DNA of 64,000 nt from Staphylococcus phage AH12: sequence record OR455461.1, one strand, 5' to 3'. The notes beneath the pieces are model-generated. The model searched no databases. It was not told the DNA's origin and was given only the letters and a program-made list of their open reading frames with translations. Shown here piece after piece: positions 4,611 to 60,403 of this stretch. Every line of letters begins with the position of its first letter. Positions within the stretch are counted from its first letter, which is position 1. Made by a program: the position numbers and the translations under genes.

Positions 4611-4736
4611 TTAATTGTTTTTACTAAATTCATGAACTTCATTAAGATGCTCATGGTCTTGATAACTAAATTTAAATTCATATAGTTTCTTTTCAAATCT
4701 TTTTCTAGTTAATAATTCGTATAATCTTTTTAACAT
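4611..4736 (-). CDS. small hypothetical protein (41 aa, MLKRLYELLTRKRFEKK...)
   Basis: Short ORF not in the supplied track. Preceded by AAGGAGATG plus 8 nt then ATG. Confidence 0.3.
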   Translation of the reverse strand: MLKRLYELLTRKRFEKKLYEFKFSYQDHEHLNEVHEFSKNN

Positions 4737-4760
4737 ATCTAATTCATCTCCTTATTAATT

Positions 4761-5171
4761 TTAAAATGACGCATCTATTATTAAATAAAAATCATGCTTA
4801 TTGCTTTCTAAATAGTATCTATTTTGAAATATTTCTAACATTAATTTGTAGTATTTTGTTAGATCATTATCAAAATTATCTTCTTTTAATTCTTTTTTCA
4901 TTAATTCTTTTAAATTTGATTCTGAAATTACTTGAACATCATAACCTTCATCATCTTTAAAAATAGTTGAATTTTCACTTAAAACTTTAAATAATTCATG
5001 TGGTTTATATAATTCTAATTCAAATAAGTGATTTTTCTTATTTATATATCTTTTATTTTTAATATACCAATCTAAATTTCTTTGATGACTTTTATTTATT
5101 CCATATATACTAAGTTCCATACCCATAAATAATACATCTCCTATATAATAAATACCCATAATATATTGCAT
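4761..5171 (-). CDS. hypothetical protein
   Basis: 136-aa ORF. Exact start uncertain, several in-frame Met codons. Confidence 0.45.
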   Translation of the reverse strand: MQYIMGIYYIGDVLFMGMELSIYGINKSHQRNLDWYIKNKRYINKKNHLFELELYKPHELFKVLSENSTIFKDDEGYDVQVISESNLKELMKKELKEDNFDNDLTKYYKLMLEIFQNRYYLESNKHDFYLIIDASF

Positions 5172-5194
5172 TAATATATTATGGGTAAAATAAT

Positions 5195-5980: not shown

Positions 5981-6026
5981 TTATTTAATCACTTCTTTCA
6001 TATATTATAAAAGTAAGTTAATTAAA

Positions 6027-6713
6027 TTACTTAAAGTTTTTATTTACTAAATAGTTTTTAATTTCTTTCTCATCTTTAACTTCAATAAATTTCTTATTGA
6101 AATTTAATATATTATAATCATCTAATGTCCCATCTTTATATTTAGAGAAATCTTCTAGTTTTATTTTATTCTTATTTTCTTCAAATTCTTCTAGAATTTC
6201 TTCATTAATTATATATAAATCAATATCATCATTTTCAATTTCTTTTAATATCGCTTCAAACATTTCACTAAAGAAAATCTGATCGTCTTCTTTATGAGTG
6301 TATTCAAATTTAGGATAATTTTCATATTCAAATAATTTCCGGTTATAAAATAAGTTTCTTACTTTTGTGAAATTTCCAACGCTTTCAAATTTATTAAGAG
6401 TTGCAGCAGTAGGTACAAGTTTAATATCAATTATAGCTTCATGATTAAGCTTCAACCGAATAATCAATTCTATTTCTTTTATTCTATACATGATATTATT
6501 GTGATTAATTACAATGAACTTTCTAGTCATTCCTTGATGCCTTAATATATAGTCTCCTTCTGTATATTTCTCATGCTTCACTAAGTATAGATTATCATCT
6601 ACATAGTTAATGAATGAAAAAGCTCTAATATATTTTTCTATCCCATCTTTTGCTTCTACATATTTTCCATTATCTTTATTTTTGTATAATTTGAAATCAT
6701 ACATATCATTCAA
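6027..6713 (-). CDS. hypothetical protein; C-terminal-tag paralog family (..EVKDEKEIKNYLVNKNFK)
   Basis: 228-aa ORF. Confidence 0.55.
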   Translation of the reverse strand: MNDMYDFKLYKNKDNGKYVEAKDGIEKYIRAFSFINYVDDNLYLVKHEKYTEGDYILRHQGMTRKFIVINHNNIMYRIKEIELIIRLKLNHEAIIDIKLVPTAATLNKFESVGNFTKVRNLFYNRKLFEYENYPKFEYTHKEDDQIFFSEMFEAILKEIENDDIDLYIINEEILEEFEENKNKIKLEDFSKYKDGTLDDYNILNFNKKFIEVKDEKEIKNYLVNKNFK

Positions 6714-7323
6714 ACCCTTTCTTGACTAAGTAATTTTTAATTTCCTTTTCATCCGTTACTTCTTCAAATAGTTCATCTATATTACTTAAATCATAGATTT
6801 CTTTTATATTATCTTTACTTATTTTGTAATCATGAATATTATCTTTATCATTTAATGAAAATACATTGAATATAGAACCATTTTTATTAAATATATCTCT
6901 AGTCAAGTATTCTTTAGCTTTGTCTATTAAAGTTTTTCCTTCAGTATATATTTCTCCATCATTAAAATAAAATTTACTTTCACCTTCTTCAGATACAAAA
7001 GGTCCTATTTCACAGTGAACTTCTTTTTTTGAAAACTTTGGAATATTCAATACAAAACTAAATTCATATTGACCGTCATTTTTATCTACGAAAAGATCAA
7101 ATTCATTTACATAAAAAAGATTATTCATATCATAACCGAATCTTAGAATTAGACCATCCATAGAATTTATCCACAGACGAACATTTTCAACATCATAACC
7201 AGTACAGCCCGGATGTTTGAAAAATTGATCAAAAGATATATCAAATAATTCTTTTCTAGAAAGACTCTTTTCATTAATGAAACTATATTCTAGGATGTCA
7301 GACACATATAATGTTTTATTCAT
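6706..7323 (-). CDS. hypothetical protein; C-terminal-tag paralog family (..EEVTDEKEIKNYLVKKGFE)
   Basis: 205-aa ORF. Confidence 0.55.
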   Translation of the reverse strand: MNKTLYVSDILEYSFINEKSLSRKELFDISFDQFFKHPGCTGYDVENVRLWINSMDGLILRFGYDMNNLFYVNEFDLFVDKNDGQYEFSFVLNIPKFSKKEVHCEIGPFVSEEGESKFYFNDGEIYTEGKTLIDKAKEYLTRDIFNKNGSIFNVFSLNDKDNIHDYKISKDNIKEIYDLSNIDELFEEVTDEKEIKNYLVKKGFE

Positions 7324-7341
7324 TTTAATTACCTTCTTTCA

Positions 7342-7887
7342 TCATTTAAAATTTTTCTCTACTAAATATTTTTTAATTTCTTTTTCATCTTTAATTTCAT
7401 CAAAGCATTCTAATATACCGCTAATATCTCTTTCAATCCCATCAATAATTATTTTTAATTCAATTCTATCATTCTTAATAATATAATCAGAAGCATTAAC
7501 AACGGATTGAATTAAATCTCCTTTATCAGTTTCATAATTATCAAGAAGAATATATGTGTATAATCTAGTATTAACATTGTATTCTCTTAATTTAAATAGA
7601 TCTAATGGTAATCTAATTCTAGAATATACCAATATGCTATTATTGTCTCCATGCGTTATTGATAAAGGACCTTTTAAATAACCATCTATTTTCATGTATA
7701 CATTTGATAAATAATCATAAATACTAATATCATCAGAATCACTTCTTATATAAACATTAGTAAATAATATTAATAAAGATAAACCTAACACACGATCATT
7801 TTCTATATTATTATGATTAAATTGTATTATTTTATGATGTTTACTTTTTCTTAAAAATCTAGAGTTTTTTAAATCCATATATTTCAC
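7342..7887 (-). CDS. hypothetical protein; C-terminal-tag paralog family (..DEIKDEKEIKKYLVEKNFK)
   Basis: 181-aa ORF. Confidence 0.55.
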   Translation of the reverse strand: MKYMDLKNSRFLRKSKHHKIIQFNHNNIENDRVLGLSLLILFTNVYIRSDSDDISIYDYLSNVYMKIDGYLKGPLSITHGDNNSILVYSRIRLPLDLFKLREYNVNTRLYTYILLDNYETDKGDLIQSVVNASDYIIKNDRIELKIIIDGIERDISGILECFDEIKDEKEIKKYLVEKNFK

Positions 7888-7893
7888 TTCTCT

Positions 7894-8535
7894 CTACTTA
7901 AAATTTTCTTTAACTAAGTATTGTTTAATTTCTTTTTCACTTTCTAATTTTTCTAAGACCTTGTATATTTCATCGAGTGTATATTCTTCTAAAATTAAAT
8001 CTTTCTTAAATTCTCGACTTGTCATAAAATCAATATCATCCTCTACAGAATCAACTGTATATATTATTAAATTTGTTTCTTTTTTACTACTAAAGAGATC
8101 AATTATATTTGAAATTAATTCATGTTCCAAATTATCTCTATTTTTAATTTGAATTTTAGCTGTATATGAAAATACTTGACTACTAATTGAACTTTTAAAA
8201 GGTCCTATATTCTTGTATCCATTTTCATTTTTATCTAATAATGAAAATACAAAATATAATTCAAAATAATTATTATTGCACGTGTCTGTTATATCTATAT
8301 AAGAATTCTTAGTTCTGTAATAAGTATTTTTATCCCTTATCAAAATACTATTGGTTTTTAATGAAAATAAACCAATTTCATCTATTTTTTTCTTAACGTT
8401 ATTAAAATTAAATAATTCTTTGAATAGATTAACATTTAATTCATCTTTAGTAACATCTTTATTAGTTACTATTATTTGCCCTCTACTATCAACTTTATAG
8501 AATTCATGATTATTTATATATTCATTATTATCCAT
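7894..8535 (-). CDS. hypothetical protein; C-terminal-tag paralog family (..ESEKEIKQYLVKENFK)
   Basis: 213-aa ORF. Confidence 0.55.
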   Translation of the reverse strand: MDNNEYINNHEFYKVDSRGQIIVTNKDVTKDELNVNLFKELFNFNNVKKKIDEIGLFSLKTNSILIRDKNTYYRTKNSYIDITDTCNNNYFELYFVFSLLDKNENGYKNIGPFKSSISSQVFSYTAKIQIKNRDNLEHELISNIIDLFSSKKETNLIIYTVDSVEDDIDFMTSREFKKDLILEEYTLDEIYKVLEKLESEKEIKQYLVKENFK

Positions 8536-8569
8536 ATTAACTTCATCTCCTCTATTTAAAATATTATTA

Positions 8570-8600
8570 GAGATAATGAATTATTATAATCCATTATCTC
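8570..8600 (-). terminator. hairpin GAGATAATG..CATTATCTC
   Basis: 9-bp inverted repeat in intergenic gap. Confidence 0.35.
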
Positions 8601-8629
8601 ATTTTTATAATATATATTTAATACATATT

Positions 8630-9301
8630 TCACCTAAATCCTTCTTTAACTAAGTAATTCTTGAATTCTTTATCAGTAGCAGTTCTAAATAAATCTTTAT
8701 TGTGTAAATTAATATCTTTTAAACTATAATATGATCCATCAATTAAAAACTGTAGGTCTTCATATTTATTCAATTCACTTATCATCTTGATGAATTGTTT
8801 TTGAAACTTCTCAAGTGATAAGTGAAATTTAGGACATCTTTCACTAATACTATTCAAAGCAACGCCTTCATTTTTGGTTAGTTTAATTGTATTAAGTTTA
8901 CTATTTATACTTGTACCCATCTTCATCATATTATACTCATACAACATTTCATCTTTTAGATAACTATTATCTTTCTCTTTACTTATTAATTTTAATTCAG
9001 TTTTTACAAATGATATTCCAGCAAAACTAGTTGATCCTGAATCCATATTTTGATAATAAGACAACTTCATATTCTTATAATCATTAAACCCTCTTAATTT
9101 CAGTTTACATTCAACTGTAAATTGCAATACATTTTCATAATCAGGATTAGCGTTATCAGTTAATAATTTTATCATATTGATAGTATCTACTCTTTCAATA
9201 TAATCTCTATCATTATCATATCTATCTTTATTTATTTTCATGAAACGATTATCTTCCAAATCTTTATTTATTATATATAAATCAAAATCATAACCTTCCA
9301 T
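8630..9301 (-). CDS. hypothetical protein; C-terminal-tag paralog family (..TDKEFKNYLVKEGFR)
   Basis: ORF 8630..9397 trimmed to the Met (MEGYDFD) that follows AAGGAGG. This removes the overlap with the upstream gene. Confidence 0.5.
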   Translation of the reverse strand: MEGYDFDLYIINKDLEDNRFMKINKDRYDNDRDYIERVDTINMIKLLTDNANPDYENVLQFTVECKLKLRGFNDYKNMKLSYYQNMDSGSTSFAGISFVKTELKLISKEKDNSYLKDEMLYEYNMMKMGTSINSKLNTIKLTKNEGVALNSISERCPKFHLSLEKFQKQFIKMISELNKYEDLQFLIDGSYYSLKDINLHNKDLFRTATDKEFKNYLVKEGFR

Positions 9302-9314
9302 TAACAATTCCTCC

Positions 9315-9800
9315 TTATTTAAAATGATTTCTAACTTTAAAATCTTTAACTTCTTTACAATCTTCTGAGATAATTTCAAATATATCTTCATTATCAAAAT
9401 TGAATTTTTCTAATGGAATATTATAATATTTCATATTTATATCTATCGTATCACATATTCTTTTATAAAATAAATAATAAAGATCAACTGAAGAGTCTGA
9501 TATGACAAGATTTTGATTTGTTAAATTTATATTTTTAGGTATAAAAGGGGCACTATTAAAGTCCCAATTAATATGTGTAGCTAAATTATGATTAGTAAAA
9601 TCGTAAATTAAGAAAAAATCTAGTTTTATATTACCTTCTTCTTCATCATATAATTCAATCTTTTTACCATCAGATTTATAAAAAGAAAAATTTTCTTTTT
9701 TAAATTCATTATTGAATACATAATAGAAAGCATCGTCTTTTCTATGAATATCATTAACTTCATATATTTCATTATTTACTTTATCTTTGTAATATATCAT
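9315..9800 (-). CDS. hypothetical protein; tandem duplicate of 9818..10297, short version of family tag (..VKDFKVRNHFK)
   Basis: 161-aa ORF. Its first ~30 aa and the underlying DNA are nearly identical to the neighbour. Confidence 0.55.
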   Translation of the reverse strand: MIYYKDKVNNEIYEVNDIHRKDDAFYYVFNNEFKKENFSFYKSDGKKIELYDEEEGNIKLDFFLIYDFTNHNLATHINWDFNSAPFIPKNINLTNQNLVISDSSVDLYYLFYKRICDTIDINMKYYNIPLEKFNFDNEDIFEIISEDCKEVKDFKVRNHFK

Positions 9801-9817
9801 TATCTATTTCAGCTCCA

Positions 9818-10297
9818 TTATTTAAATGTATTTCTAACTTTAAAATCTTTTACTTCTTGACTATTTTCATCCAATATTTCAAATATATCTGTATTACTAA
9901 ATTTAAAATCTTTTAATTTGACATAGTACTTTGATAATTTTTGATCTATCTCACATATATTTTTATATATTAAATAATAGAGATCCTCAGCAGAATCACT
10001 TGAAATAAAATTTTGACTCATTAAATTAAGTTGATGGCCCATTAAAGGTACATCTTTATTCCATGAAGGAATTAATGTCGTTTCATAATTAATAAAATTA
10101 TAACGAATATCAAATCTATATTTTAAAAATCCATACTCTTCATCTATAAATTCTACTATTTTGCTACTAGAAAAATACATATCCTCAAATGTTGGTAAAA
10201 ATTCGTTTCCAAATACATAATAGAATGCATCATCACTTCTATGAATATCATTAACTTCATATATTTCGTTATTTACTTTATCTTTGTAATATATCAT
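9818..10297 (-). CDS. hypothetical protein; tandem duplicate of 9315..9800 (..VKDFKVRNTFK)
   Basis: 159-aa ORF. Confidence 0.55.
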   Translation of the reverse strand: MIYYKDKVNNEIYEVNDIHRSDDAFYYVFGNEFLPTFEDMYFSSSKIVEFIDEEYGFLKYRFDIRYNFINYETTLIPSWNKDVPLMGHQLNLMSQNFISSDSAEDLYYLIYKNICEIDQKLSKYYVKLKDFKFSNTDIFEILDENSQEVKDFKVRNTFK

Positions 10298-10311
10298 CTA
10301 TTTACCCTTCC

Positions 10312-11022
10312 TTATTTAAAATTTTCTTTAATTAAATATTTCTTAATTTCTTTTTCATCAGTTATTTCTTCAGATATAGAATACAGATAATTTTTAATAT
10401 ATTCCATAAAAGGTATAAACGCTCCATCTATATTAATTGACATATCTTTTAATATATAGTGAATCAGACTGTCTAAAGACTTATATTCATTATCTTCTAT
10501 ACTCTCTAAATATTCTTTTTTAAAATCTACTCTAAAAGATATATCTTCATCAATTAGCATTATTCTTTTAATTGAGTATTTCTCACTGTCACAATTATCT
10601 AATACATTTTTTACCTTTTGAGGGTTTTTTATTTTTAAAACAATTTGAAATATTCTTTCATTATCAATATTATCATAAAAACAAACAATTGAAGCCTTTA
10701 TTTTATCAGAATCATTACCCTTAATTACCATATTTTTATCTTTTCCAGTTAGATTTTTAAGATTCATAATAATATCTGAGTAAATATAAAAATGGAAATT
10801 CATCTGCATATTGTTTACTAGAAAACTACTATCAAGAAATTCAATATTCTTTTGATTTTTATTTGTTATATGTTCCATAGCTTTATATAAAAATCTACCA
10901 TTATCAATTTCATTATTATTTAAAGAAAATTTTTGATTAGTTATTGTATTATTGTATACTTTTATATTATTCATTTTATCCACCTCAATTTTATAATATA
11001 TATTTAAATAAGCATTTTGCAT
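10312..11022 (-). CDS. hypothetical protein; C-terminal-tag paralog family (..EEITDEKEIKKYLIKENFK)
   Basis: 236-aa ORF. Confidence 0.55.
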   Translation of the reverse strand: MQNAYLNIYYKIEVDKMNNIKVYNNTITNQKFSLNNNEIDNGRFLYKAMEHITNKNQKNIEFLDSSFLVNNMQMNFHFYIYSDIIMNLKNLTGKDKNMVIKGNDSDKIKASIVCFYDNIDNERIFQIVLKIKNPQKVKNVLDNCDSEKYSIKRIMLIDEDISFRVDFKKEYLESIEDNEYKSLDSLIHYILKDMSINIDGAFIPFMEYIKNYLYSISEEITDEKEIKKYLIKENFK

Positions 11023-11079: not shown

Positions 11080-13246
11080 TTATTCTTTAGTTAAAGAATA
11101 TAAAGCTTGTACCATATATTTATGATAATTAGACTATATCTTATGATATTTAAATCATTTCCATATTTAGTCGTTGAACAACTTTTATTAAGTTGATGCT
11201 GATTAGTTTTGTTTTTCCAGCAATTAATGAAATTTATTGAGAGCATACAAACTTACTCTCATTACCAACTCCACGTATACTATTTCCTGTGTAGTTTAAG
11301 TAATTAGTTTTCTTATTAATAAGTTTATCAGCTTCTTTATTTGCCTCTACAGACCATAAAGAGCGTATTGAAATCATATCCATTTTATATACATGTATTT
11401 ACATATAATTAGACTATATCTTCTTTAGTAATATATTTAGTCGTTGAACAACTTTTATTAAGTTGATGCTGATTATCTTATAGATTTTCCAGCAATTAAT
11501 ATTATTTAATGATGGTAATATGAAATTTTGCCATCAAAGTCAGCCGTAGTATTAACTTCATATAAATTTTTTATGAAGACTAGACTATATCAAACACTTT
11601 TAATTAAGTGTAATTATATTTAGTCGTTGAACAACTTTTATTAAGTTGATGCTGGTTAGATTTGACATTCCAGCAATTAATAATTTTTTGACATTATATC
11701 GCTATAATGAAAGGTCATTAAAATAGCCAAGTGCTTGAGCATATGAATTGTGTATGATTGCAGTATCTAAGAAAATATCTTCATCAATAGGATATTCTCT
11801 TACTACTTTAGGGTAATCTTTTAATACTATATCATCTAAAACTATTTCTGGAATAGTATCAACAGTAGTTAATATTTTAATTTTAGCAGGGGCTACGTTC
11901 AAGAAATTTTCGCATTTATTATATTTATATAATACTTATATAAATTAGACTATATTATATACTATTTAATAGTACCATTGCATTTAGTCGTTGAACAATT
12001 ATATTTAATTGATGCTGATTAACTTTATTAATAGTATTTCAGCAATTAACAGTGTTTATCGACTTAAATCACTTTAAGAAGCGACCATTTTATTAATCGG
12101 ATATCTTGAATACATAACATGCTTATCTTCTACTATTTCAGTTGCAGCGATATAAAGTAAATCAATTACAGTAAAATCTCTACCTAAAGTATTTTCAAAT
12201 AATTTAACTTTATGACGTTTACCTTCTCTATCATTTACATATATAGGACTAAATCTTTCATTAGGATCTTTAATAAAAAATTCTAGCATATTCTTAATTT
12301 CTTTATCATCAAATTGTTCATAAACTTCCTCTAATGAAAGCTCTTTATCTCCTTCACCTGTAGCTGTTTGGAAAGCATCTTTATGAAGTTCAATAAAATC
12401 AATTATATACTTATTAAAGAATGGTAAGAATAATGTAACTAATTGAGTTAATGGTACACCTAACTCACCAAACTCTATCTGCATTTCATCCCATTTATTC
12501 GAATTAATTTTAGGTGAAGAAATAACTGCACGAGTACTATTATCTACTGTTTTACCCAATATACGTTTTTGCATAAAACCAGTTTTACCTGATAATTCTC
12601 CTGAAGTAAATTTCTGATATATTTCAAATAATGTATTTTGTATATTATATTTAGTACTGTTAGCTATAAATCCGAATGAATTAAAACTAATAGCATCTAC
12701 AGAACGTATAATAGAAGAATACATATTATTAACTTCTTCAGTATCTTGAATTTCTCCTGAAGTTTCATTAGGATTAAAGTCTCTATAAAATGCAGGTATT
12801 ACTAACCATTTATCTACAAATATTTTTTGTTTATCCGTATTCTTAATCATATCAATTTTTTCAGATCTAATACGAGAATCATTCTTTCTAAATTTTAAAT
12901 CATCAAATACTTCATATAAGAAATTCAGTCCAGTGTCTCCATCTTCTGAAGGAACTAATTGACCTTTTTCTACTTTAAAATACTCTGAACCCTGAATACA
13001 TAGTTCAATATTTTTATCTAAATCTTTTAATGCTTTATAAGCTACCGGATTAAGGTATTTATCCTTTAAATTAATCCAACCTAAATTATTTTTTCTTTCA
13101 GGAGTACCTATCAAACCAAATATGTCATATGAAAATAAACCATCATCTTTTGGTAGTATACCCGAATCAAAAAATACAGGGTTGGTTACTTCTTTAGCAT
13201 TAGTGTCAGTTATGACTTGTTCAATATCTATCATATCTACTTTCAT
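11080..13246 (-). CDS. multisubunit RNA polymerase beta-prime-like subunit, N-terminal/catalytic-loop part. Split gene: join(13246..12096, 11912..11717, 11544..11530, 11380..11255, 11112..11080), about 506 aa
   Basis: Exon A contains GKTGFMQKRILGKTVDNSTRAVI, matching the beta-prime [23 protein letters not shown] motif. Predicted spliced product reads ..GYFN-ADFDG-DMISIRSLWSVEANKEAD.., matching ..[26 protein letters not shown]... Exon E gives ..VQALYSLTKE, matching VVLGLYYMTR. Exon borders were derived from P1/IGS pairing and reading frame. Confidence 0.7.
11113..11254 (-). ncRNA. ultra-compact group I intron R4 (142 nt) in the RNAP beta-prime-like gene
   Basis: P1 is exon GAGAGU paired to IGS GCUCUC with terminal U.G, 10-nt loop. 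Same core. Ends ..AUAUAUG before GUACAAGCU (V Q A). The first intron nucleotides encode KFVCSQ* when unspliced. Confidence 0.7.
11381..11529 (-). ncRNA. ultra-compact group I intron R3 (149 nt) in the RNAP beta-prime-like gene
   Basis: Same core. Hairpin UGAUGG(C)-15 nt loop-CCAUCA(A) forms P1. Ends ..AUAUAAAAUG immediately before GAUAUGAUU (D M I). The 5' splice site appears to follow C of GGC, facing A in the IGS. Confidence 0.6.
11545..11716 (-). ncRNA. ultra-compact group I intron R2 (172 nt) in the RNAP beta-prime-like gene
   Basis: Same conserved core. 5' exon ends ..UUUUAAU (Asn). GNRA hairpin CAUUAUA-GCGA-UAUAAUG lies in the P1 loop. Tentative IGS is GUCAAAA. The terminal G sits just before GCUGACUUUGAUGGC. 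Exact 3' splice site is tentative. Confidence 0.55.
11913..12095 (-). ncRNA. ultra-compact group I intron R1 (183 nt) in the RNAP beta-prime-like gene
   Basis: P/Q/R/S cores present (UUAAUUGCUG, AAUCAGCAUC, GUUCAACGACUAAAU, GAUAUAGUCUA). P1 is exon CGAU paired to IGS GUCG with U.G at the splice site. GNRA-capped hairpin CUUAAA-GUGA-UUUAAG. Ends ..AAUAAAUG. The reading frame is restored (AU + C = Ile). Confidence 0.7.
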
Positions 13247-14376: not shown

Positions 14377-15687
14377 CTATTCAAAATCCTTTATAAATTT
14401 ATCTTTTAAATTTGTTATTTTATCTTCTCTAAATTTAGTTTGTCTAATTTTAAACGGTCTTTCAGGTATTAAGAAATCAGTTGTATGAATATTTTCTTCA
14501 TCTGAAATTGTCATATATTTAGGGTTAGATGTATCAAAAGCTGTATAAATATCAAATTTATTTTTCTTCATTAAATTATATTTAGCTTGTGAAATTAATA
14601 CACTATAATAAATATCTTTTAATTTAACTGATTTTCTATAATTAGATGGATCTTGAAGCTCTGGAGATTCTTGACCATTAACTAATATACCTTTACCATG
14701 ATAATTCTTACCAATATAGTATATTAAATAAATGAACCCTTGATCATCTTTAACACTGAATAATCTATAACCATCTTTATCTTCATCAAATATTTCATAA
14801 ATATTCCAGTCTTTAATTATTCTACGTTTAGCATAATAAGGTCTATTTTCAGGTCTTAAATGATAAGGTTGTCCTCCAATAGGCATTTTCTTATCGTATT
14901 CTTCTTTTTCAAGTTGTTTAATATATGTTTTACTGAAATTATCAAATAAGAAGGACACTTGATCATCAAAACCTTCATAATTATAAGTAATTGGTAAAAT
15001 AACTTTAAATATTTTGCTATTAGTTTTATTAAATACTTTTCTTAAATTAAAATCGTTTAATTTAATTCTTATTTCATCAGAACTAATATCTTCATAATAA
15101 TCATCAATTTTAATTGATTCTAAAGAACTAATTAAAGTACTATATGATTTTGGATTTTCTTCTTCAATATCTGTATGAATAACAATTTCTTCATTTTCAT
15201 GATCAATATGAGCAATCATTCTATAATATTTCATATCAAGATAATCAACATCATATACTTCTTCTTTATCAGGTTCTCTTGACCATATTTCTAAATCATC
15301 AAATCCTTTTATTTCTAATTTAGAATTATCTTTCAAAGTAATATTTTTTAAGAAATCTTTTCCAATATGTTTTCTAGATAAATGAGTGAAGAATATCTTT
15401 AACTGAGATTTATTTAATTTAGGTATATCTTTATCTAGTTCAAAGAAGTAACAATCATTATTAAATTTTTCTTTATTATCATAATTATTTCTATAATCAT
15501 TTAATAAGTTTTTTAATTCTTTATCTTCCATAAATCTAGTTAAATTATCAATAATAAATCTATTATGATCAAATCTATAAAACCAAGTACCATCTACATC
15601 CATCTTTCTAAACTTAGAAGGTATTTTTCTACCATTTTTTCTATATAACGATTTCTTCTTACTAAATACATCTGATTGTTTTGCCAT
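14377..15687 (-). CDS. hypothetical protein
   Basis: 436-aa ORF with basic N-terminus. Confidence 0.5.
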   Translation of the reverse strand: MAKQSDVFSKKKSLYRKNGRKIPSKFRKMDVDGTWFYRFDHNRFIIDNLTRFMEDKELKNLLNDYRNNYDNKEKFNNDCYFFELDKDIPKLNKSQLKIFFTHLSRKHIGKDFLKNITLKDNSKLEIKGFDDLEIWSREPDKEEVYDVDYLDMKYYRMIAHIDHENEEIVIHTDIEEENPKSYSTLISSLESIKIDDYYEDISSDEIRIKLNDFNLRKVFNKTNSKIFKVILPITYNYEGFDDQVSFLFDNFSKTYIKQLEKEEYDKKMPIGGQPYHLRPENRPYYAKRRIIKDWNIYEIFDEDKDGYRLFSVKDDQGFIYLIYYIGKNYHGKGILVNGQESPELQDPSNYRKSVKLKDIYYSVLISQAKYNLMKKNKFDIYTAFDTSNPKYMTISDEENIHTTDFLIPERPFKIRQTKFREDKITNLKDKFIKDFE

Positions 15688-16336: not shown

Positions 16337-18626
16337 CTAAAATTTAACCATATTTGATACGAAAGAACTATTTGAAGATTCTAACACTTTAACTCCAATA
16401 GATTCAATAATATCTTTACCTGGTTTAATGTGATCTTCTATCATTGAATCATAATCAATAAATGGTCTAAACTCTTCAGGTATTTTATTTCCTTCTACAG
16501 CAATTACATTCATTCCATTTTTAACTAATCTTTCGTTTCTAAATATTTCTCTAAATTTATCTAATAATTCTTCATCATCAACTTTATCTTTAATATCTCC
16601 AAATGATTTAATATTTAACTTAACCATTAAGATATTTGATGGAAGAGATATTTCTTTATCTGGATACATTAAATTCCATGATAAAGCTGCTCTATAATTC
16701 ATTTGTGTATAAGGATCTTTATATACTTCTGCATTATTAGCTTTACCAGGTTTTAAGAATTCAATATCACCATTCTCTAATGATTTTTTAATCATCTCTT
16801 CAATTTCTTTATATTTACGTATAATACCAATTCTATCAATACCAGTTTTATTTTCTAAAATATCTTTCTGTAGTATTTCAGTGAATAATTCTCTAATACG
16901 TTTATTAGTATTAACTTTTCTAATAGCCATACCTTTAACATCTAAGTCTGGTGGTTGAACTAAATTACCTTCTTGTTGTATTACTGATGATGCATAAGTT
17001 TTCTTTTTATCTGTTGTTAATTGTTTGTCAAGTAAAACGTTTATACTTATATTTAAAATATAAGACTAGACTATATCATATTCTTTATTATTAAGAATTA
17101 TTATATTTAGTCGTTGAACTTCATTATTGAAGATGCTGATTAAGTTTATTTTGTCTCAGCAATTAATAATATTTACTAATACACATTACTGTATACTGGA
17201 GCATTTACATACTCATTTTTCATTGATATAACACCTAAATGTTCATCTTCTAATCCTAAATCTTTACAGAATCTATGATAAGATAATTCTAGTAATTTAG
17301 TTATTTGATAGTTAATAATAGATATATTACCTACACGTTGTTCTAATTTATCTTCTAAACCATTTTCTGCAATAGGGAAATCTTCAGGTTTCTTTTCTTT
17401 CATTTTTTGATATAATGGATCTAAATGTACAAAGTTACTATCTGTCTTTAATATTATATTTTTAAATATAAAATAGACTATATCATATACTCTTTATGAG
17501 CATCATTATATTTAGTCGTTGAACAATCATATTGATTGATGCTGATTAATTTAATAAATACTTTCTCAGCAATTAATAATGTGAATCAACTTAAATTACT
17601 TTAAGCGGCGACCATGTTATCATAATCGATTGTAAGTACACTTCTACGTTTTTTATAATTCATTCTATACATTCTATTGTAATCTTGATAATTATAGATA
17701 ACCCAGTCTTCTAATATATCAAATAATTCATCTAATAATGGAATCATATCTTCAGGTGGTTCATTTGGATCTAAGAAATCTTCTCTACCAGTCATTTTAC
17801 TAATTTTATTATCAAATATATCTGTATGATCTAATAAACCATAAAGATTATTTTTAAAATAAACTCTATTTTTCTCATCTTGAGTTAAATTACTAAAGAA
17901 TTCTTTCAAATCATTTTCTTCATCTTCAGAGAAATTATATTCTACGTTATCCAATAAACCTTTTAATATTTCATTATCAGTAGGAACTGAATTTATCTTA
18001 ATATCGTGTTCTTTATATTCTTCTTGACATATTCTTACGATATAATTATAAATCTCACTAATATTCATAAAGAATATTTTACTTCCTATAAATCTTTCTA
18101 AAGCTATTGCTGAAGTAGTAACAATATCAACACCACTATATGTGATAGCAGGGCCTGAATAAGGATCATAGAAAATACTATTTCCTTGTATCATTGCACC
18201 ATAGTAACTATTAGCCAAAATCTTAATTGTTTTTTGCTCGTTCATATATTTATGATATTTAATATCGTCTACACCTTTACTTATAAACATATTATGTTTA
18301 GCTACTTTACGTGAGTCAATGAAGTCTTTTAACATCTCTGCATTTAAATTTTTTCTTTGTGATTGTGGTTGATAAATCGAACCTGATCCAGTTACTATTA
18401 AATTTGAATTAATAACTGTACGTAATAAAGAATCAACATTCATTTCTTGACCTGATACTTCTGTCATGACAGGTTTAACATTTTCTTTTACAAATTCTCT
18501 ACACTCTTTTAATATTTCTTCTTTATCAAAATCAGGATTATTCTTTTGAACCATCCATACCAATTGTTCTAAGTATCCGGTTAAAGCTCTTTTTCTTTCT
18601 TCTTTATTCTTTAATTCTGTTGTCAT
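16337..18626 (-). CDS. family-B DNA polymerase, C-terminal catalytic (palm/fingers/thumb) part, encoded as its own gene. Split gene: join(18626..17625, 17445..17193, 17037..16337), about 651 aa
   Basis: Exon 1 has motif B KILANSYYGAMIQG (Kx3NSxYG). Predicted splicing joins ..VLTID to TDSNFV.., giving motif C IDTDS (cf YGDTDS). Exon 3 has the KKxY motif DKKKTYASS. AGGAGGT RBS lies before the ATG at 18626. The N-terminal exonuclease part and motif A are not in this gene. Confidence 0.7.
17038..17192 (-). ncRNA. ultra-compact group I intron (155 nt) between polB exons 2 and 3
   Basis: Same core. P1 is exon GUAU plus intron AC, paired to IGS GUGUAU with U.G at the splice site. Hairpin CUUAUAU..AUAUAAG precedes the 3' end ..AUAAACG. 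The frame is restored (U + UU = Phe). Confidence 0.6.
17446..17624 (-). ncRNA. ultra-compact group I intron (179 nt) between polB exons 1 and 2
   Basis: Same P/Q/R/S core. P1 is exon CGAU paired to IGS GUCG with U.G. GNRA hairpin CUUAAA-GUAA-UUUAAG. Closely related to intron R1, same 5' flank AUGGUCGC..CUUAAAGURAUUUAAGUYGAU. Ends ..AUAUUAAAG. The unspliced frame reads YDNMVAA*. Confidence 0.7.
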
Positions 18627-19085: not shown

Positions 19086-19742
19086 TTATTTAAAATTTTT
19101 ATTTATTTTATATTTTTTAACTTCACTTTCAGAAAGCTCTTCAATTATATTATTTTTTCTGCTGTTAAATACATTTTCAATCTCTTGTAAATAAAATATA
19201 TTACTATCTTCTATTTCCCCATTTTTAAATAAAGATAGATTAAATGAATACATATCTCCTAAAATGGTTTTAATTTTGTTTAGAACAGAATAAACTGCGT
19301 TTTCAAAATTATCTTTATCTGTACGAACCATAACAATTTCATCCGAATATTCTATATGAAATTCTTCATTTAAATCTATTAAAGCTTTTTTAGATGCATA
19401 TAAATCATAATATACACCTAAATCTAATTTCAATTCAATATCAGAATCATTCTTAATAAATAATAAAGAAATAAAATTATTATTATCAATATCGCTTGAA
19501 AATACTAACGATACGCCATTTTCATCTAAATTATTTGAAATAAAATCTTTTATTAAAATTTTAAAATATAAGAAAAAACTGATTTCAGTATTCATTTTAA
19601 ATACATTATTTTTTCTTAAATTTACATCTTTAGAAAAATTGAAATTCAAATAATTAATTTTTAATCTATAATAAAAAGAATCATCTTTGAATCTCAATAG
19701 ATTTGTGTAATGGTTTATTAACTCATCTTTAAATTTCTTCAT
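19086..19742 (-). CDS. hypothetical protein; outlying member of C-terminal-tag family (..SESEVKKYKINKNFK)
   Basis: 218-aa ORF. Confidence 0.5.
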   Translation of the reverse strand: MKKFKDELINHYTNLLRFKDDSFYYRLKINYLNFNFSKDVNLRKNNVFKMNTEISFFLYFKILIKDFISNNLDENGVSLVFSSDIDNNNFISLLFIKNDSDIELKLDLGVYYDLYASKKALIDLNEEFHIEYSDEIVMVRTDKDNFENAVYSVLNKIKTILGDMYSFNLSLFKNGEIEDSNIFYLQEIENVFNSRKNNIIEELSESEVKKYKINKNFK

Positions 19743-19829: not shown

Positions 19830-20144
19830 TTAATTTCTAATATATGAAATTACAAATGAAATTACAAATAAAATACTCAATGCAAGAATTACTGTCAATC
19901 CAAATGTTACTATAAAGTCTAAGACAGGACTACCCAAATGGATATCTGGAAAGTTAAATATTGATTCGTTAGGAATATTATCGTCTGGTGTATGTTGTGG
20001 CATATTTGCAGGATTAGTTGGACTAGTGGGATTAGCTGGATGTAAAGGATTATTTGGACTAGCTGGGCTAGCGGGATTACTTGGATTTAAAGGGCTAGCG
20101 GGATTACTTGGATTTAAAGGGCTAGCGGGATTACTTGGATTCAT
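19830..20144 (-). CDS. small membrane-anchored protein with N-terminal Pro/Ser/Asn repeats (NPSNPASPL x3) and a C-terminal TM helix
   Basis: 104-aa ORF. 27-bp tandem DNA repeats encode the peptide repeat. Hydrophobic C-terminus VLDFIVTFGLTVILALSILFVISFVI. Confidence 0.5.
   Translation of the reverse strand: MNPSNPASPLNPSNPASPLNPSNPASPASPNNPLHPANPTSPTNPANMPQHTPDDNIPNESIFNFPDIHLGSPVLDFIVTFGLTVILALSILFVISFVISYIRN
20040..20130. repeat. 27-bp tandem repeat (about 3 copies) inside CDS 19830..20144
   Basis: TTAAAGGGCTAGCGGGATTACTTGGAT repeated head-to-tail. Encodes the PSNPASPLN peptide repeats. Confidence 0.7.
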
Positions 20145-58052: not shown

Positions 58053-60403
58053 GATTCACATTCAACAATACCTTGAGAATTTTCATCATGGTCTGGTGAA
58101 TAAATACGAGTATAATACATAGATTTAATACCTTTACTGTAAGCATAGTTACGTAATCTACTAATATCACGAGTAGTAGTTTCTTTATCTAAAGAATCTT
58201 TTTTCCATTCATACAATTCAGGATCAAGTTCATTCATTAAATAAATATTCATAGAGATACCTTGATCAACATGATATTGAGCTTCTGAATATAAATCAAT
58301 CATATCACGCATATCTAATTGATAAGCATTTTTCTTAAAGTAATCAAAGTTATCTGGTGTAATACCTGGTGCTGGATAGAAAGTAGTACCTGTTTTACCT
58401 TCTACACGTTCTTCAATTAATTCAACAATAGGGTGAATTGAAGGTGATACTTCTCTAACATAACCAATAGAACCATTAGGTGCTACAGCTAATCTATTTT
58501 GATTGTATAAACCATCCATAACGATATTATTTCTTAATTGTTCCCAATCACTATCAGATGGAATAAAGATATCTTCAAATAATTCTTTAACTTTTTCAGT
58601 ACGTGGTTGAATATTTTTACCAATATAACGTTTATCAAAGTAAGAACCATCAGCATATTCAGTTTTTTCAAATAAATAGAATGATTCATCTTTTTCTTTA
58701 GCAATTTTATTTGATTCAACTAACGTCCAATAGTTTAATAGCATGAAATAAATATTAGTGAAATCTTTAGATTCTTCTGATCCATATTGAATATGATTTT
58801 CAGCTAAATAAGTGTGTAATCCCATTGCACCTAAACCAACTGTATGGAATAAATCATTAGCTTTCTTAACTGTAGGTACAGCTTCAATATTAGATTTTTC
58901 TGCTACTGAATTTAAACTTCTTAACATAGTTCCAACTGATTTACCAAAGTCTTCTGATTTCATTAAACCAGGTACGATAGTTGAAGCTAAGTTACATGAA
59001 ACATCTGTTCCTGTTTTAACATATTGTTGATTATCGTCAACTAATGAAGGGTATTGTACTTGCAGAATTTCACTACACAAATTACTCATTTTAATTGTAC
59101 CATGACTAATTGGATTAGCTCTATTAGCTGTATCAATATTAATAATATAAGGATATCCAGATTCTTGTTGTAATTTACTAATAGTAGTTTCTAAATCACG
59201 AGCATACATTTTCTCTTTACCAATACGTTTATCATCTACAAAGATATCATAGTAAGTATTAAAGTCAATACTATCGAAATCTAAATCATAATATTTTTTA
59301 ATATCATATGGACTAAATGTATATAATGATTTATTTTCTTTAACTAATTGGTAATATTTATCTGGAACTGTTAAACCTAATGAAATAGTTTTTAGTCTTA
59401 CTTTCTCATCAGCATTTTCTTTCTTAGTATCTAAGAATTTCACTACATCTTTATGGAAAATATTTAAGTAAAGTGCACCTGCACCATTTCTTTGCATTTA
59501 TATTAACTATATGAAATTCATATAGATTAGACTATATCTTATACTATTAATAAGTATTATTATATTTAGTCGTTGAACAATCATCTTGATTGATGCTGAT
59601 TAAGTTTATAAACTTTTCCAGCAATTAATATTATTTATACTGAGCCATTAAAATTAACCCAGTTGATTTACATATGATAAAGTATCTTCAAATACTTTCA
59701 TAACTGGAACTACTCCTGAAGCAGCACCTTCAACACCTTTAATTGGATCATTATCAGCACGTAGATTACTTAAAGATACTCCTATTCCTCCACCACGTTT
59801 ACTTAATTGTGCCACATTAGAGATATTTCTATAAATAGATGATAAAGAATCCTCCATAGTTAATAAGAAACAACTTACTAACTCACCAGAACGTACTCTA
59901 CCTGCATTAAGAAATGTAGGTGTAGCTGGTTGGAAAGTACCTGTAATAATTTCATTAGCAATATCTCTAGCTAATTCTTCATCACCGTCAGCTAAGTATA
60001 AAGCTACAAATAAAATTCTATCTTCATATAGTTCTAATAAGATTTCCCCTGCATCATCTTTCATTGCATACTGTTCATAGAATTTTTTAGCTCCTAATAA
60101 ACGAGTAAAACGATGTTTATAAGCCATTAATTCTTTCATTAATCCTTTAATAAATTCAAAATTATAGTTATTGATCATATCTCCATCAATATAATCATTA
60201 TTAACTAAGTAATTAATTTTTTCCTTATATGTTTTAAAATATCTTACATTCTTATTAACTTTTTCATCGAAGTATTTACTAACAGAAGCTAACTCAAATT
60301 CTAGATCTAAATTACCGTCTTTTAATTGTGAACCTCTTGAATTCAATTCATTGTATGAATAATCTTTGAACTTTTCTGAGTTTAAGTCTATTTCTTTTGT
60401 CAT
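58040..60403 (-). CDS. nrdE: ribonucleotide reductase class Ib alpha subunit. Split gene: join(60403..59657, 59494..58040), about 733 aa
   Basis: Exon 1 has ..TFQPATPTFLNAGR..GELVSCFLL..SKRGGGIGVSLSNLR... Exon 2 has ..QRNGAGALYLNIFH.. and the C-terminal Cys pair (CESCSI). Predicted splicing gives the seamless ..NQLG-QRNGAGA.. junction. Confidence 0.8.
59495..59656 (-). ncRNA. ultra-compact group I intron (162 nt) in nrdE
   Basis: P1 is exon CUGGGU paired to IGS GCUCAG (C-G, U-A, G-C, G.U, G-C, terminal U.G), 11-nt loop. P/Q/R/S cores AAUUGCUGG, AAUCAGCAUC, GUUCAACGACUAAAU, AAGAUAUAGUCUA. P9-like hairpin CUAUAUG..CAUAUAG. Ends ..AUAUAAAUG. The ATG of the downstream ORF is actually the intron 3' end. 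Confidence 0.8.

What the first reader, a model, noticed from the sequence alone, without database searches (positions are those of the whole stretch)
17446..17624. Intron subfamilies share guide sequences and target motifs across different genes, suggesting spread by IGS-directed reverse splicing
Intron R1 in RNAP and PolB intron 1 share an extended 5' domain, AUGGUCGC..CUUAAA-GNRA-UUUAAGUYGAU. Both use IGS GUCG and both follow an exon ending ..CGAU (CCGAU^ and AUCGAU^). The nrdE intron and RNAP intron R4 share IGS GCUC.. and follow GGGU^ and GAGU^. None encodes a homing endonuclease. Matching IGS and target pairs across unrelated genes is the signature expected for mobility by reverse splicing into transcripts followed by reverse transcription and recombination. 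Selection may also hold them at conserved codons.
Basis: inference. Interest (0 to 1): 0.65.

Follow-up and report, generated by a model that had tools for sequence, protein, structure and literature searches.

The report
Compact mobile group I intron family
The flagged 179 bases are one of seven tiny, gene-less self-splicing (group I) introns in this Staphylococcus jumbo-phage segment. They belong to a family that has multiplied to about 10-34 copies in some phages and none in close relatives, and each copy sits where its guide sequence can pair with the gene. That fits RNA-guided spread but does not prove it.

Summary
Window 17446-17624 (- strand) is a 179-nt ORF-less group I intron that splits the DTDS motif of a family B DNA polymerase. 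It is one of seven family members (142-183 nt) in the window: four in the virion RNA polymerase beta-prime gene, two in PolB and one in nrdE.

Intron-less alleles in phages S6 and SA1 fix every junction. Covariation supports the P3/P7-pseudoknotted core, although Rfam misses these introns at its gathering score.

By my core-profile search the family has 34 copies in phage LY01 and 0 in S6. Across 37 insertion sites the introns fall into a few guide/target classes:
- CGAU^ with guide GUCG, at 6 sites.
- GRGU^ with GCUC.
- GGU^ with GCC.

The 3' exons show no consensus.

The pattern is not diagnostic of reverse splicing, for four reasons:
- P1 pairing is obligatory for any insertion that survives.
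- Guide class tracks only the adjacent 5' module, not the rest of the ribozyme.
- Presence/absence differences among close relatives carry flanking exon changes, which indicates DNA recombination.
- Relatives of the family carry TnpB (IStron-like) or an HNH endonuclease.

Reverse splicing remains the leading but unproven route to new sites (about 0.4).

The parts
17446..17624 (-). PolB intron 1 (I1), 179 nt, ORF-less group I intron. 5' exon ...AUCGAU^; the last base is omega-G (17446). It splits the DTDS motif.
   Evidence: Junction fixed by the intron-less S6 and SA1 PolB genes. The MFE fold recovers P1, P2, P4, P6, P7, P8 and P9.
17609..17612 (-). I1 internal guide sequence GUCG. It pairs with exon CGAU, with U.G at the splice site. 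The P1 hairpin is extended by the pairing UAUG/CAUG.
17590..17605 (-). I1 P2 hairpin CUUAAA-GUAA-UUUAAG (GNRA loop), shared with R1.
17567..17581 (-). I1 P3 5' strand, J3/4 and P4 5' strand (..AUUAUUAAUUGCUG).
   Evidence: Covariation analysis
17504..17524 (-). I1 J6/7, P7 5' strand and P3 3' strand (GUUCAACGACUAAAUAUAAUG); the group I 'R' element.
17475..17483 (-). I1 J8/7 and P7 3' strand (AUAUAGUCU); the group I 'S' element.
17038..17210 (-). PolB intron 2 (I2), 173 nt. Target AUGAGU^, guide GCUC (17199-17202), P2 with GUAA loop. Absent from PB50.
11913..12095 (-). RNAP beta-prime intron R1, 183 nt. Target CCGAU^, guide GUCG (12082-12085), P2 CUUAAA-GUGA-UUUAAG.
11545..11725 (-). RNAP beta-prime intron R2, 181 nt. 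Target UUGGC^, guide ACC (11713-11715; C.A at the splice site). Present only in the window phage.
11530..11544 (-). 15-nt exon GCTGACTTTGATGGC (ADFDG of the catalytic NADFDGD motif), lying between R2 and R3.
11381..11529 (-). RNAP beta-prime intron R3, 149 nt. Target GAUGGC^, guide ACCAUC (11511-11516). No P2, and P8 almost absent.
11113..11254 (-). RNAP beta-prime intron R4, 142 nt. Target GAGAGU^, guide GCUCUCA (11238-11244). No P2 and no P9 hairpin.
59495..59656 (-). nrdE intron N1, 162 nt. Target AACUGGGU^, guide GCUCAGU (59639-59645). No P2.

Best explanation
SHOWN. The feature is an ORF-less, unusually compact group I intron. It has P1, an optional GNRA-capped P2, the P3/P7 pseudoknot, P4-P6, P8, P9 and omega-G. 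It interrupts PolB in its catalytic DTDS motif. It is one of seven copies in the window of a family that is abundant in Machias-type and MarsHill-type Staphylococcus jumbo phages and not detected in S6-type relatives. Family members occupy at least 37 different sites. Each site's last 3-8 exon bases pair with the intron's guide. The sites fall into a few guide/target classes that share a homologous 5' module.

INFERRED. New sites are most likely reached by RNA-level target recognition. An excised intron reverse-splices after a short guide-complementary motif in a transcript. The recombined RNA is then copied to DNA (these phages encode a reverse transcriptase) and recombined into the genome. 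Only insertions in conserved, essential codons persist.

SHOWN for the later steps. Once at a site, introns move between or are lost from related phages by DNA-level homologous recombination with co-conversion of flanking exon bases. At some sites this is helped by HNH- or TnpB-bearing versions. Copies within a genome recombine with each other, which scrambles everything except the guide-linked 5' module. Guide and exon also co-evolve in place; R3 shows U.G to C.A together with C-G to U-A.
For: Group I identity:
- Junctions restore the S6 and SA1 reading frames exactly, and all seven introns end in G.
- Covariation on 30 distinct cores gives 96.3% paired cells against 76.4% in shuffles (0/500). 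There are 146 compensatory cells against 43. P3 has 5 of 6 pairs with double changes.
- RNAalifold independently finds P4, P6, P7 and P8.
- RF00028 gives sub-threshold hits of 20-31 bits on the four RNAP introns.
- The same R...S motif lies inside bona fide RF00028 hits in IMG/VR contigs.

Mobility:
- Copy numbers are 34 in LY01, 0 in S6 and 7 in the window. Blastn places are 30 in Machias, 21 in PB50, 12 in Madawaska and 10 in MarsHill.
- Sites are polymorphic among close relatives.

Guide-limited targets:
- Table of 41 lineage-site representatives.
- CGAU^/GUCG(C) with related P2 hairpins at 6 sites in 5 genes.
- AACUGGGU^/GCUCAG(U) in both nrdE and S6_0790.
- GUGAGU^ and GUGGGU^ both paired with GCUCAC.
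- G enrichment at -2 to -4 (22, 25 and 17 of 36, against 15% background), with no 3'-exon consensus.
- All 41 lineage-site representatives that I mapped lie in the sense orientation inside genes, and every core-profile hit spans almost the full profile, so no decayed fragments were seen.

RT availability: Korn et al. preprint; Pfam RVT_1.

DNA-level exchange.
Against: - No reverse-spliced RNA, cDNA or de novo insertion has been observed.
- The RT is also present in intron-free S6 (86% identical), and it is not in this window.
- Guide class does not predict similarity of P5, P6, P8 or P9, so shared 5' domains could reflect gene conversion between copies.
- 309 CGAU sites exist in S6 coding sense strands but only 6 are occupied, so pairing is far from sufficient.
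- Several same-class sites are paralogous motif positions (G^AD and AD^ in the two beta-prime genes). There, DNA homology could have guided transfer.
- Family members with TnpB at three sites and with HNH offer DNA-based routes.
- Intron-less S6 alleles mostly do not match the guides. Differences at -6..-1 are 21% against 13% nearby (p=0.03). The match may therefore be acquired or co-converted rather than pre-existing.
Confidence: 0.4

Rival explanations
1. Ectopic DNA-level homing or illegitimate recombination. Breaks made by HNH, TnpB or other phage endonucleases are repaired from an intron-bearing donor with short homology, often a paralogous conserved motif. Selection then keeps only insertions whose upstream bases pair with the guide, and guide and exon are polished by co-evolution.
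For: - Clustered flanking changes accompany presence/absence. At R2 the window has GGC|GCTGAC against GGT|GCAGAT in Machias and PB50. PB50, which lacks I2, has S6-like flanks on both sides.
- The PB50 nrdE allele carries an HNH gene in the P8 position.
- The closest public relative of R2 sits at the paralogous G^AD codon of the non-virion beta-prime gene.
- LY01 has AD^ introns in both beta-prime paralogues.
- Introns cluster within 6-15 nt of each other in catalytic motifs.
- Exon differences are enriched in the P1 zone.
- Guide/exon compensatory changes occur in place.
Against: - Most same-class sites share nothing beyond the 4-8 paired bases, and their 3' exons are unrelated. This is too little for homology-driven repair or for a protein endonuclease site of 14-40 bp.
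- A and G are interchangeable opposite a guide U, which is an RNA-pairing property.
- No donor-exon carry-over is seen at heterologous sites.
- No endonuclease gene lies in or next to the seven window introns.
Confidence: 0.25
2. IStron-type DNA transposition. The mini-introns are ORF-less derivatives of IS200/IS605- or IS607-like IStrons and are moved as DNA by a TnpA supplied in trans. The conserved 5' motif is then the transposon's target/TAM, which also has to pair with the guide.
For: - LY01 has six TnpB genes (Pfam OrfB_IS605, Cas12f1-like TNB).
- Two TnpB genes lie inside family members of 1644 and 1650 nt in different genes, at CGGAU^ (89% identical). A third lies in Machias at UUUAGAU^.
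- A 296-nt LY01 member keeps the IStron 3' end ..AACAAGACAG^, so it is a deletion derivative.
- Published IStrons insert next to TTGAT or GG-containing motifs, and ORF-less copies are known (PMC4227781, PMC10690162).
- The two genomes with close homologues of this TnpB have the most intron copies.
Against: - No TnpA (Y1) or serine recombinase was found among LY01-specific ORFs or in the window.
- There is no single TAM. Targets include CGAU, GGAU, AGAU, GGGU, GAGU, GGU, GCCU, CUGU and GGC.
- P2-less introns match 6-8 site-specific bases, more than a 4-5-nt transposase target would explain.
- None of the 41 mapped representatives is intergenic or antisense.
- Terminal repeats or left/right transposon ends were not identified.
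Confidence: 0.2
3. Ancient, vertically inherited introns with differential loss. Under this view, similar guides and targets reflect convergent constraints: short P1 helices in an AT-rich genome must be GC-rich, and introns persist at Gly and Asp codons of catalytic motifs.
For: - Several sites (R1, R3, R4, I2, N1) are shared by the Machias-type and MarsHill-type lineages.
- Targets are G-rich in a genome of about 22% GC.
- Many sites are GGU (Gly) or GAU (Asp) codons.
Against: - LY01 is 90-97% identical to intron-free S6 in flanking exons but only about 80% identical to the window phage. Vertical inheritance would therefore need precise loss of every copy in the S6 group.
- Copy number ranges from 10 to 34 among close relatives.
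- R2, I1 and LY01 site 65565 are lineage- or strain-specific.
- 5' modules at different sites are homologous, not convergent. Two LY01 introns share a stretch of about 45 identical nt, and the P2 sequence is shared at several sites.
Confidence: 0.05

Closest known systems
ORF-less group I introns of phages (T4 td/nrdB/sunY, SPO1/SP82 DNA polymerase, Twort orf142, AR9 introns)
   Same: Self-splicing-type introns in essential DNA-metabolism and transcription genes of virulent phages, inserted in the most conserved codons. The core has the R and S elements and omega-G. The related jumbo phages were already annotated as having intron-split RNAP and DNA polymerase genes (Korn et al., bioRxiv 10.1101/2020.12.14.422802).
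   Different: - These introns are much shorter: 142-183 nt in the window and 127 nt in LY01. The RF00028 hits I obtained in other viral contigs spanned about 180-410 nt.
- They fall below Rfam's gathering score.
- No P7.1/P7.2 insert is seen.
- There are 10-34 copies per genome instead of a few.
- Two copies use C.A instead of U.G at the 5' splice site.
- Exons of 6-15 nt lie between neighbouring introns.
IStrons (CdISt1, BcISt1, CboIStron): group I intron fused to an IS200/IS605 or IS607 element
   Same: Relatives in LY01 and Machias have the same layout: a ribozyme at the 5' end followed by TnpB and a GC-rich, guide-RNA-like 3' end. They insert after a short conserved motif that also forms P1, and ORF-less derivatives exist (PMC4227781, PMC10690162).
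   Different: - The seven window copies have no ORF, no recognisable transposon ends and no single target motif.
- No TnpA was found.
- The hosts are lytic jumbo phages of Staphylococcus rather than clostridial or Bacillus chromosomes. IStrons in Clostridium botulinum phages are on record.
Nuclear rDNA group I introns inferred to spread by reverse splicing (Bhattacharya et al. 2005, PMC1299323; Roman & Woodson; Birgisdottir & Johansen)
   Same: Related introns sit at heterologous sites whose 4-6 upstream bases match the guide. The evidence is circumstantial and comparative only. [quoted passage not shown]
   Different: - Here the targets are protein-coding genes of a virus.
- The copies are very numerous and recent.
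- An RT gene is encoded by the same phages.
- Recombination among copies has erased whole-intron phylogeny.
Homing-endonuclease-driven group I intron homing, including collaborative homing
   Same: Presence/absence at cognate sites among related phages comes with co-converted flanking exon bases. One allele (PB50 nrdE) carries an HNH gene in the same intron.
   Different: The window copies encode nothing, and heterologous sites share only the P1-paired bases.

Membership tests
Group I intron | Conserved core fold: P3-P4-P5-P6-P7-P8 with the P3/P7 pseudoknot | tested here: met
   The count of structure pairs on 30 distinct cores gave 96.3% paired cells (shuffles 76.4%, 0/500) and 146 compensatory cells against 43. 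Slid controls gave 26-50%. RNAalifold independently finds P4, P6, P7 and P8.
Group I intron | Match to the curated covariance model (Rfam RF00028) at its gathering score | tested here: not met
   There was no hit in the whole window at the gathering score or at E<=10. With lax filters on 1.2 kb, the scores were 31.3, 28.4, 20.4 and 20.1 bits against a gathering score of 50. The shortfall comes from missing or shortened peripheral helices, not from the core motifs, which align.
Group I intron | 5' exon ends in U, paired with G of an internal guide sequence (P1) | tested here: met
   Five of the 7 window introns, and 34 of 36 tallied sites, end in U opposite a guide G with 3-8 bp of P1. R2 and R3 end in C opposite A. 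For R3 this is backed by a double compensatory change relative to LY01 and MarsHill.
Group I intron | The intron's last base is G (omega-G), and excision restores the reading frame exactly | tested here: met
   All seven end in G. The spliced products are colinear with the intron-less S6 and SA1 genes.
Group I intron | GTP-dependent self-splicing | not testable with these tools
   This needs in vitro transcription and splicing, or RT-PCR from infected cells. It is a real question for the copies that lack P8 or P9.
IStron | Group I ribozyme carrying IS200/IS605- or IS607-family genes (TnpA and/or TnpB) within the intron | tested here: not met
   The window introns are 142-183 nt with no ORF, and tblastn found no TnpB in the window. 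The feature is met only by relatives: LY01 82557-80914, LY01 134552-136201 and Machias L141 939-2591.
IStron | Transposon ends and a single conserved target/TAM shared by all copies | tested here: inconclusive
   Targets are G-rich but heterogeneous, and transposon ends were not searched for systematically.
Homing-endonuclease intron | Encodes a homing endonuclease | tested here: not met
   There is no ORF in the seven window copies. The PB50 allele of the nrdE intron has an HNH gene.
Homing-endonuclease intron | Co-conversion of flanking exon markers with intron presence or absence | tested here: met
   The R2 flanks differ at 3 synonymous positions within 9 nt from the intron-less Machias and PB50 alleles. 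The PB50 I2-less allele has divergent flanks on both sides.
Reverse-splicing-mobilised group I intron (hypothetical class) | Related introns at heterologous sites sharing only the guide-complementary 4-8 nt | tested here: met
   The relatedness is demonstrable only for the 5' module.
Reverse-splicing-mobilised group I intron (hypothetical class) | Reverse-spliced RNA, its cDNA, and RT dependence of new insertions | not testable with these tools
   An RT gene exists in these phages but also in intron-free S6.

The most novel reading that the evidence does not exclude
These Staphylococcus jumbo phages are a natural system in which ORF-less mini group I introns transpose into new protein-coding sites by guide-directed reverse splicing. 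The phage-encoded reverse transcriptase would supply the cDNA step. This would explain bursts to 30 or more copies per genome, and it would be the first case outside rDNA and the first that is experimentally tractable.
Probability: 0.3. Interest if true: 0.85.

Novelty: new variant of a known kind. Interest (0 to 1): 0.62.

Why it matters
Whether group I introns ever reach new sites by reverse splicing in nature has been open for decades. A 2014 review states that no direct evidence exists (PMC3984707).

This phage group offers material to test it:
- Dozens of very small, recently mobile copies with a readable guide/target code.
- Intron-free sister phages that could serve as recipients.
- A phage-encoded RT that could be knocked out.
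- TnpB- and HNH-bearing versions for comparison.

Three further points matter:
- Standard annotation misses these introns. Rfam finds nothing at its gathering score, so split genes get mis-annotated. PB50 lists exon fragments as separate proteins.
- Natural group I ribozymes of 127-150 nt, some without a P8 or P9 hairpin and two with a C.A splice-site pair, are of interest for ribozyme minimisation.
- IStron-like elements are active players in lytic jumbo phages.

Tried and rejected
- Rfam on the whole window, at the gathering score and at E<=10, found no group I hit. Only a small-region search with lax filters gave sub-threshold RF00028 matches.
- Rfam on 100 kb of LY01 found nothing.
- The first two attempts to place junctions by plain gapped DNA alignment against S6 mis-set boundaries by 1-5 nt and merged neighbouring introns. 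I replaced them with my own spliced-alignment routine. A few LY01 junctions remain uncertain: the 5' splice site at S6 position 210395, the 3' splice site at 191611, and both ends at 107510.
- I tested whether the phage RT tracks the introns. It does not: S6 has an 86% identical orthologue.
- I looked for a TnpA or serine recombinase among LY01- or window-specific ORFs. None was evident. This screen used ORFs of at least 70 aa without an S6 homologue and only partial Pfam scanning, so it is not exhaustive.
- The 436-aa ORFan (14377-15687) is co-distributed with the family. It has no Pfam or PHROG hit and only 4 homologue clusters, and its AlphaFold model has pLDDT 39. I did not attempt a fold search.
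- The HEG-containing intron in MarsHill beta-prime near the R1 site does not resemble this family.
I rejected it as the conserved guide because LY01 orthologues lack it.
- tRNA scan: none found.
Full report
WHAT THE WINDOW IS. The 64-kb window is about 22% GC. It is about 96% identical over 9 kb to Staphylococcus jumbo phages Machias and vB_StaM_PB50. It is about 80-84% identical to MarsHill, Madawaska, LY01, S6, PALS_2, DC4 and SA1. [quoted passage not shown] The ORFs flanking the finding are fragments of a divergent family B DNA polymerase. ORFs 58040-59497 and 59654-60403 are the two halves of a class I ribonucleotide reductase alpha subunit.

CHECKING THE OBSERVATION. Repeat finding shows seven copies of one element, all on the - strand (families D13, D18 and D19). 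S6 and SA1 carry uninterrupted beta-prime (1512 nt) and PolB genes. These let me fix every junction by tblastn, codon inspection and a spliced-alignment routine I wrote.

The seven introns are:
- R1: 11913-12095 (183 nt)
- R2: 11545-11725 (181 nt)
- R3: 11381-11529 (149 nt)
- R4: 11113-11254 (142 nt)
- PolB I2: 17038-17210 (173 nt)
- nrdE N1: 59495-59656 (162 nt)

All seven end in G. I1 splits TID^TDS, the catalytic DTDS motif. R2 and R3 bracket a 15-nt exon that encodes ADFDG of the NADFDGD motif.

R1 and I1 follow CGAU^ and carry GUCG. N1 (CUGGGU^ with GCUCAGU) and R4 (GAGAGU^ with GCUCUCA) share GCUC. I add three points:
- I2 (AUGAGU^ with GCUC) is in that class too.
- R2 and R3 follow GGC^ and pair it with ACC.
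- The conserved guide of the CGAU class is the first GUCG(C), because LY01 orthologues lack the downstream GUYGAU.

IS IT A GROUP I INTRON? Rfam finds nothing in the window at its gathering score or at E<=10. The DC4 authors likewise reported that Rfam found no introns in their genome (PMC10638138). Four lines of evidence nevertheless support a group I fold:
- The strings GUUCAACGACUAAAU ... AUAUAGUC are the classical R and S elements. The same pattern lies inside many bona fide RF00028 hits in IMG/VR contigs.
- With laxer filters on 1.2 kb, RF00028 scores 31.3, 28.4, 20.4 and 20.1 bits on R3, R4, R2 and R1, against a gathering score of 50.
- On an alignment of 30 distinct cores, RNAalifold independently predicts P4, P6, P7 and P8, with 10 of 23 pairs showing double changes.
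- With P3 added as a pseudoknot, 96.3% of cells are paired against 76.4% in shuffles (0/500). There are 146 compensatory cells against 43 (0/500). Slid controls give 26-50%. P3 has five of six pairs with double changes.

P5, P8 and P9 are hairpins whose sequences vary while the stems are kept. The MFE fold of I1 recovers P1, P2, P4, P6, P7, P8 and P9 (z = -1.96). These are therefore genuine but very compact group I introns. Some members lack a P2, P8 or P9 hairpin, and the shortest LY01 copy is 127 nt. Self-splicing itself is untested.

HOW BIG AND HOW MOBILE THE FAMILY IS. A profile of the core finds 34 copies in LY01, 0 in S6 and 7 in the window. Blastn counts 30 places in Machias, 21 in PB50, 12 in Madawaska and 10 in MarsHill, and no match in S6, PALS_2, DC4 or SA1. 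In flanking exons LY01 is 90-97% identical to intron-free S6. The window is only about 83-90% identical to S6 in the RNAP and PolB genes. The family is thus present in two lineages that are not each other's closest relatives.

Site occupancy varies among close relatives:
- R2 occurs only in the window phage.
- I1 occurs only in the window, Machias and PB50. LY01 instead has an intron 9 nt downstream (GACAGU^).
- I2 is missing from PB50.
- N1 is present in the window, Machias and LY01 but absent from MarsHill and Madawaska.
- LY01 has an extra intron inside ADFDG (GCCGAU^).

Ancient vertical inheritance alone does not explain this.

GUIDE/TARGET CLASSES ACROSS THE FAMILY. I mapped junctions for 41 lineage-site representatives from the window, LY01 and part of Machias.

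Introns with a GNRA-capped P2 have short P1 helices (3-4 bp), drawn from a few guides:
- GUCG(C) after CGAU^, at six sites in five genes: virion beta-prime (two sites), PolB, gyrB, non-virion beta-prime and a prohead-protease-like gene.
- GCC after GGU^, at about seven sites.
- GCUC after GAGU^ or GGGU^.

Introns without P2 have 6-8 bp, site-specific P1 helices. Two cases stand out. AACUGGGU^ pairs with GCUCAG(U) in both nrdE and the unrelated S6_0790 homologue. GCUCAC pairs with both GUGAGU^ and GUGGGU^, so A and G are interchangeable opposite a guide U.

The statistics over 37 sites are:
- 62 site pairs share the last four exon bases, against 20.7 expected (2 of 5000 resamplings).
- CGAU is 0.42% of the background but 6 of 37 sites. 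GGGU is 0.21% of the background but 6 of 37 sites.
- Positions -2, -3 and -4 are G in 22, 25 and 17 of 36 sites, against a 15% background.
- The 3' exon has no consensus.

WHY THIS IS NOT PROOF OF REVERSE SPLICING.
1. P1 pairing is required for splicing. Any insertion in an essential gene that survives must show it, whatever put it there.
2. Guide class predicts similarity of the adjacent 5' region (0.60 vs 0.44; 0 of 1000 permutations). It does not predict similarity of P5+P6+P8 (0.656 vs 0.653; p = 0.29) or of P9 (p = 0.38). For example, two LY01 introns 193 nt apart share a stretch of about 45 identical nt in their 5' modules but have diverged cores. The copies are mosaics, so recombination among them is pervasive. 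The 'subfamilies' are 5'-module subfamilies.
3. Presence/absence between near-identical phages comes with clustered exon changes. The window has GGC|GCTGAC at R2, whereas intron-less Machias and PB50 have GGT|GCAGAT. PB50, which lacks I2, has S6-like bases on both sides. That is DNA-level allele replacement with co-conversion, as in homing or its reverse.
4. Exon differences between LY01 and S6 are enriched in the P1 zone (21% vs 13%, p = 0.03). Most empty S6 sites would not pair with the guide. Guide and exon also co-vary in place:
   - R3 is ACGGU^ with GCCGU in LY01 and MarsHill, but GAUGGC^ with ACCAUC in the window lineage. That is a U.G to C.A change plus a C-G to U-A change.
   - The PB50 nrdE allele shows a C-G to U-A change.
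5. Only 6 of 309 CGAU sites in S6 coding sequence are occupied, and those lie in catalytic motifs. Persistence filters matter at least as much as targeting.

RELATIVES WITH CARGO. LY01 has six TnpB genes (OrfB_IS605 plus the Cas12f1-like TNB domain).
- Two TnpB genes sit inside family members of 1644 and 1650 nt. These are 89% identical and lie in two different genes after CGGAU^ with guide GUCC.
- Machias has a third such element after UUUAGAU^ with guide GUCU.
- The layout of these elements is a mini-intron-like 5' 180 nt, then TnpB, then a GC-rich 3' end finishing ..AACAAGACAG^. This is the layout of IStrons (PMC4227781, PMC10690162).
- A 296-nt LY01 member keeps that 3' end, so it is a deletion derivative.
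- The PB50 allele of the nrdE intron carries a 540-nt HNH gene where P8 sits.

None of these genes is in the window. I found no TnpA or serine recombinase among LY01-specific ORFs. The phages' retron-type RT is present at 86% identity in intron-free S6, so it is available but does not explain the distribution.

MOST LIKELY MECHANISM.
- Shown: this is a mobile, compact group I family whose sites obey a guide/target code. DNA-level recombination moves or removes introns at cognate sites. Recombination and guide/exon co-evolution reshape the copies.
- Inferred: arrival at heterologous sites by RNA-level recognition, meaning reverse splicing, then reverse transcription and recombination. I put this at about 0.4.
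- Reasons for ranking it first: same-class sites share only the paired bases, purines are interchangeable opposite U, all mapped copies are sense and intragenic, and no protein or transposon-end requirement is visible.
- Rivals: ectopic DNA homing or illegitimate repair followed by selection (0.25); IStron-type transposition with a trans-acting transposase (0.2); vertical inheritance with loss (0.05).

COMPARISON WITH WHAT IS KNOWN AND NOVELTY. Intron-split genes in Machias, MarsHill and Madawaska were annotated by protein alignment. That paper does not mention intron type, a family, copy number or guide/target structure. Reverse splicing as a route for group I transposition is an old hypothesis. 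Its best support is comparative data from rDNA, and there is no direct evidence for the full pathway (PMC3984707, PMC1299323). IStrons are known, including in Clostridium botulinum phages.

I found no description of the following in the papers I searched:
- An ultra-compact family below Rfam's threshold.
- 10-34 copies per phage genome with all-or-none distribution.
- A multi-class guide/target code in protein-coding genes.
- Mosaic copies.
- Natural C.A splice-site pairs.
- Exons of 6-15 nt.
- TnpB- and HNH-bearing siblings in lytic Staphylococcus jumbo phages.

I rate it a new variant of a known kind, with interest 0.62.

Noticed in passing
window 11381-11529 and 11545-11725 (-): R3 and R2 have a C, not a U, as the last exon base (GGC^), opposite an A in the guide (ACC). 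For R3 this is a double compensatory change relative to LY01 and MarsHill (ACGGU^ with GCCGU). A natural C.A pair at a group I 5' splice site would be unusual.
   Followed up: partly
window 11530-11544 (-); LY01 around 240999-241004 and 40953-40961: Exons of only 15, 6 (TACGAT) and 9 nt (CCATCAGGT) lie between adjacent introns inside catalytic motifs. This raises the question of how P1 and P10 of neighbouring introns share such short exons.
   Followed up: partly
window 14377-15687 (-): A 436-aa ORFan lies between the beta-prime and PolB genes. Among 50,697 phage records it is found in exactly the five that hold the intron family. It has only 4 homologue clusters in 5.8 billion proteins. It has no Pfam or PHROG match and the AlphaFold model is unusable. 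It is a candidate splicing or mobility cofactor.
   Followed up: partly
L140 597-1305 (PB50 nrdE): The PB50 allele has the same family intron at the N1 site, with a 540-nt HNH endonuclease gene inserted at the P8 position. The guide and exon show a compensatory change (AUUGGGU^ with GCUCAAU).
   Followed up: yes
LY01 82557-80914 and 134552-136201; Machias L141 939-2591: Three IStron-like elements of about 1.65 kb: a family ribozyme, then TnpB, then a GC-rich 3' end. They lie in three different genes, and the guide co-varies with the target (GGAU with GUCC; AGAU with GUCU). LY01 has six TnpB genes in all, one of them inside a roughly 1.9-kb insertion in PolB.
   Followed up: partly
LY01 177203-176820: A 384-nt insertion in the virion beta-prime gene, just upstream of ADFDG, has no match to the family core profile. 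It may be a different intron type.
   Followed up: no
IMG/VR loci L007-L126: The core profile gives 103 hits in 120 fetched loci. Many are on 230-400-kb contigs with the same roughly 100-nt P3-to-P7 span, so compact cores of this kind occur in other large phages.
   Followed up: no
window 194-11022 and 19086-19742 (-): About ten paralogous genes of roughly 200-270 aa lie in tandem and share conserved 3' ends (repeat families D1-D4).
   Followed up: no
window 19830-20144 (-): An ORF made of 9-nt-periodic repeats encodes a Pro/Asn/Ser-rich protein (NPSNPASPL...). It has no homologue in S6.
   Followed up: no
window 35788-41751 and 41773-47523 (+): Two adjacent ORFs of about 1,950 aa share a 255-nt segment at 87% identity (41025-41279 and 46365-46619) and have low-complexity repeats.
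   Followed up: no
L002 (PB50 annotation): PB50 lists exon fragments of the beta-prime and PolB genes as separate proteins. Machias annotates beta-prime with 3 exons although three family introns are present, so the last 11-codon exon after R4 is missed. Annotation pipelines are misled by these introns.
   Followed up: partly
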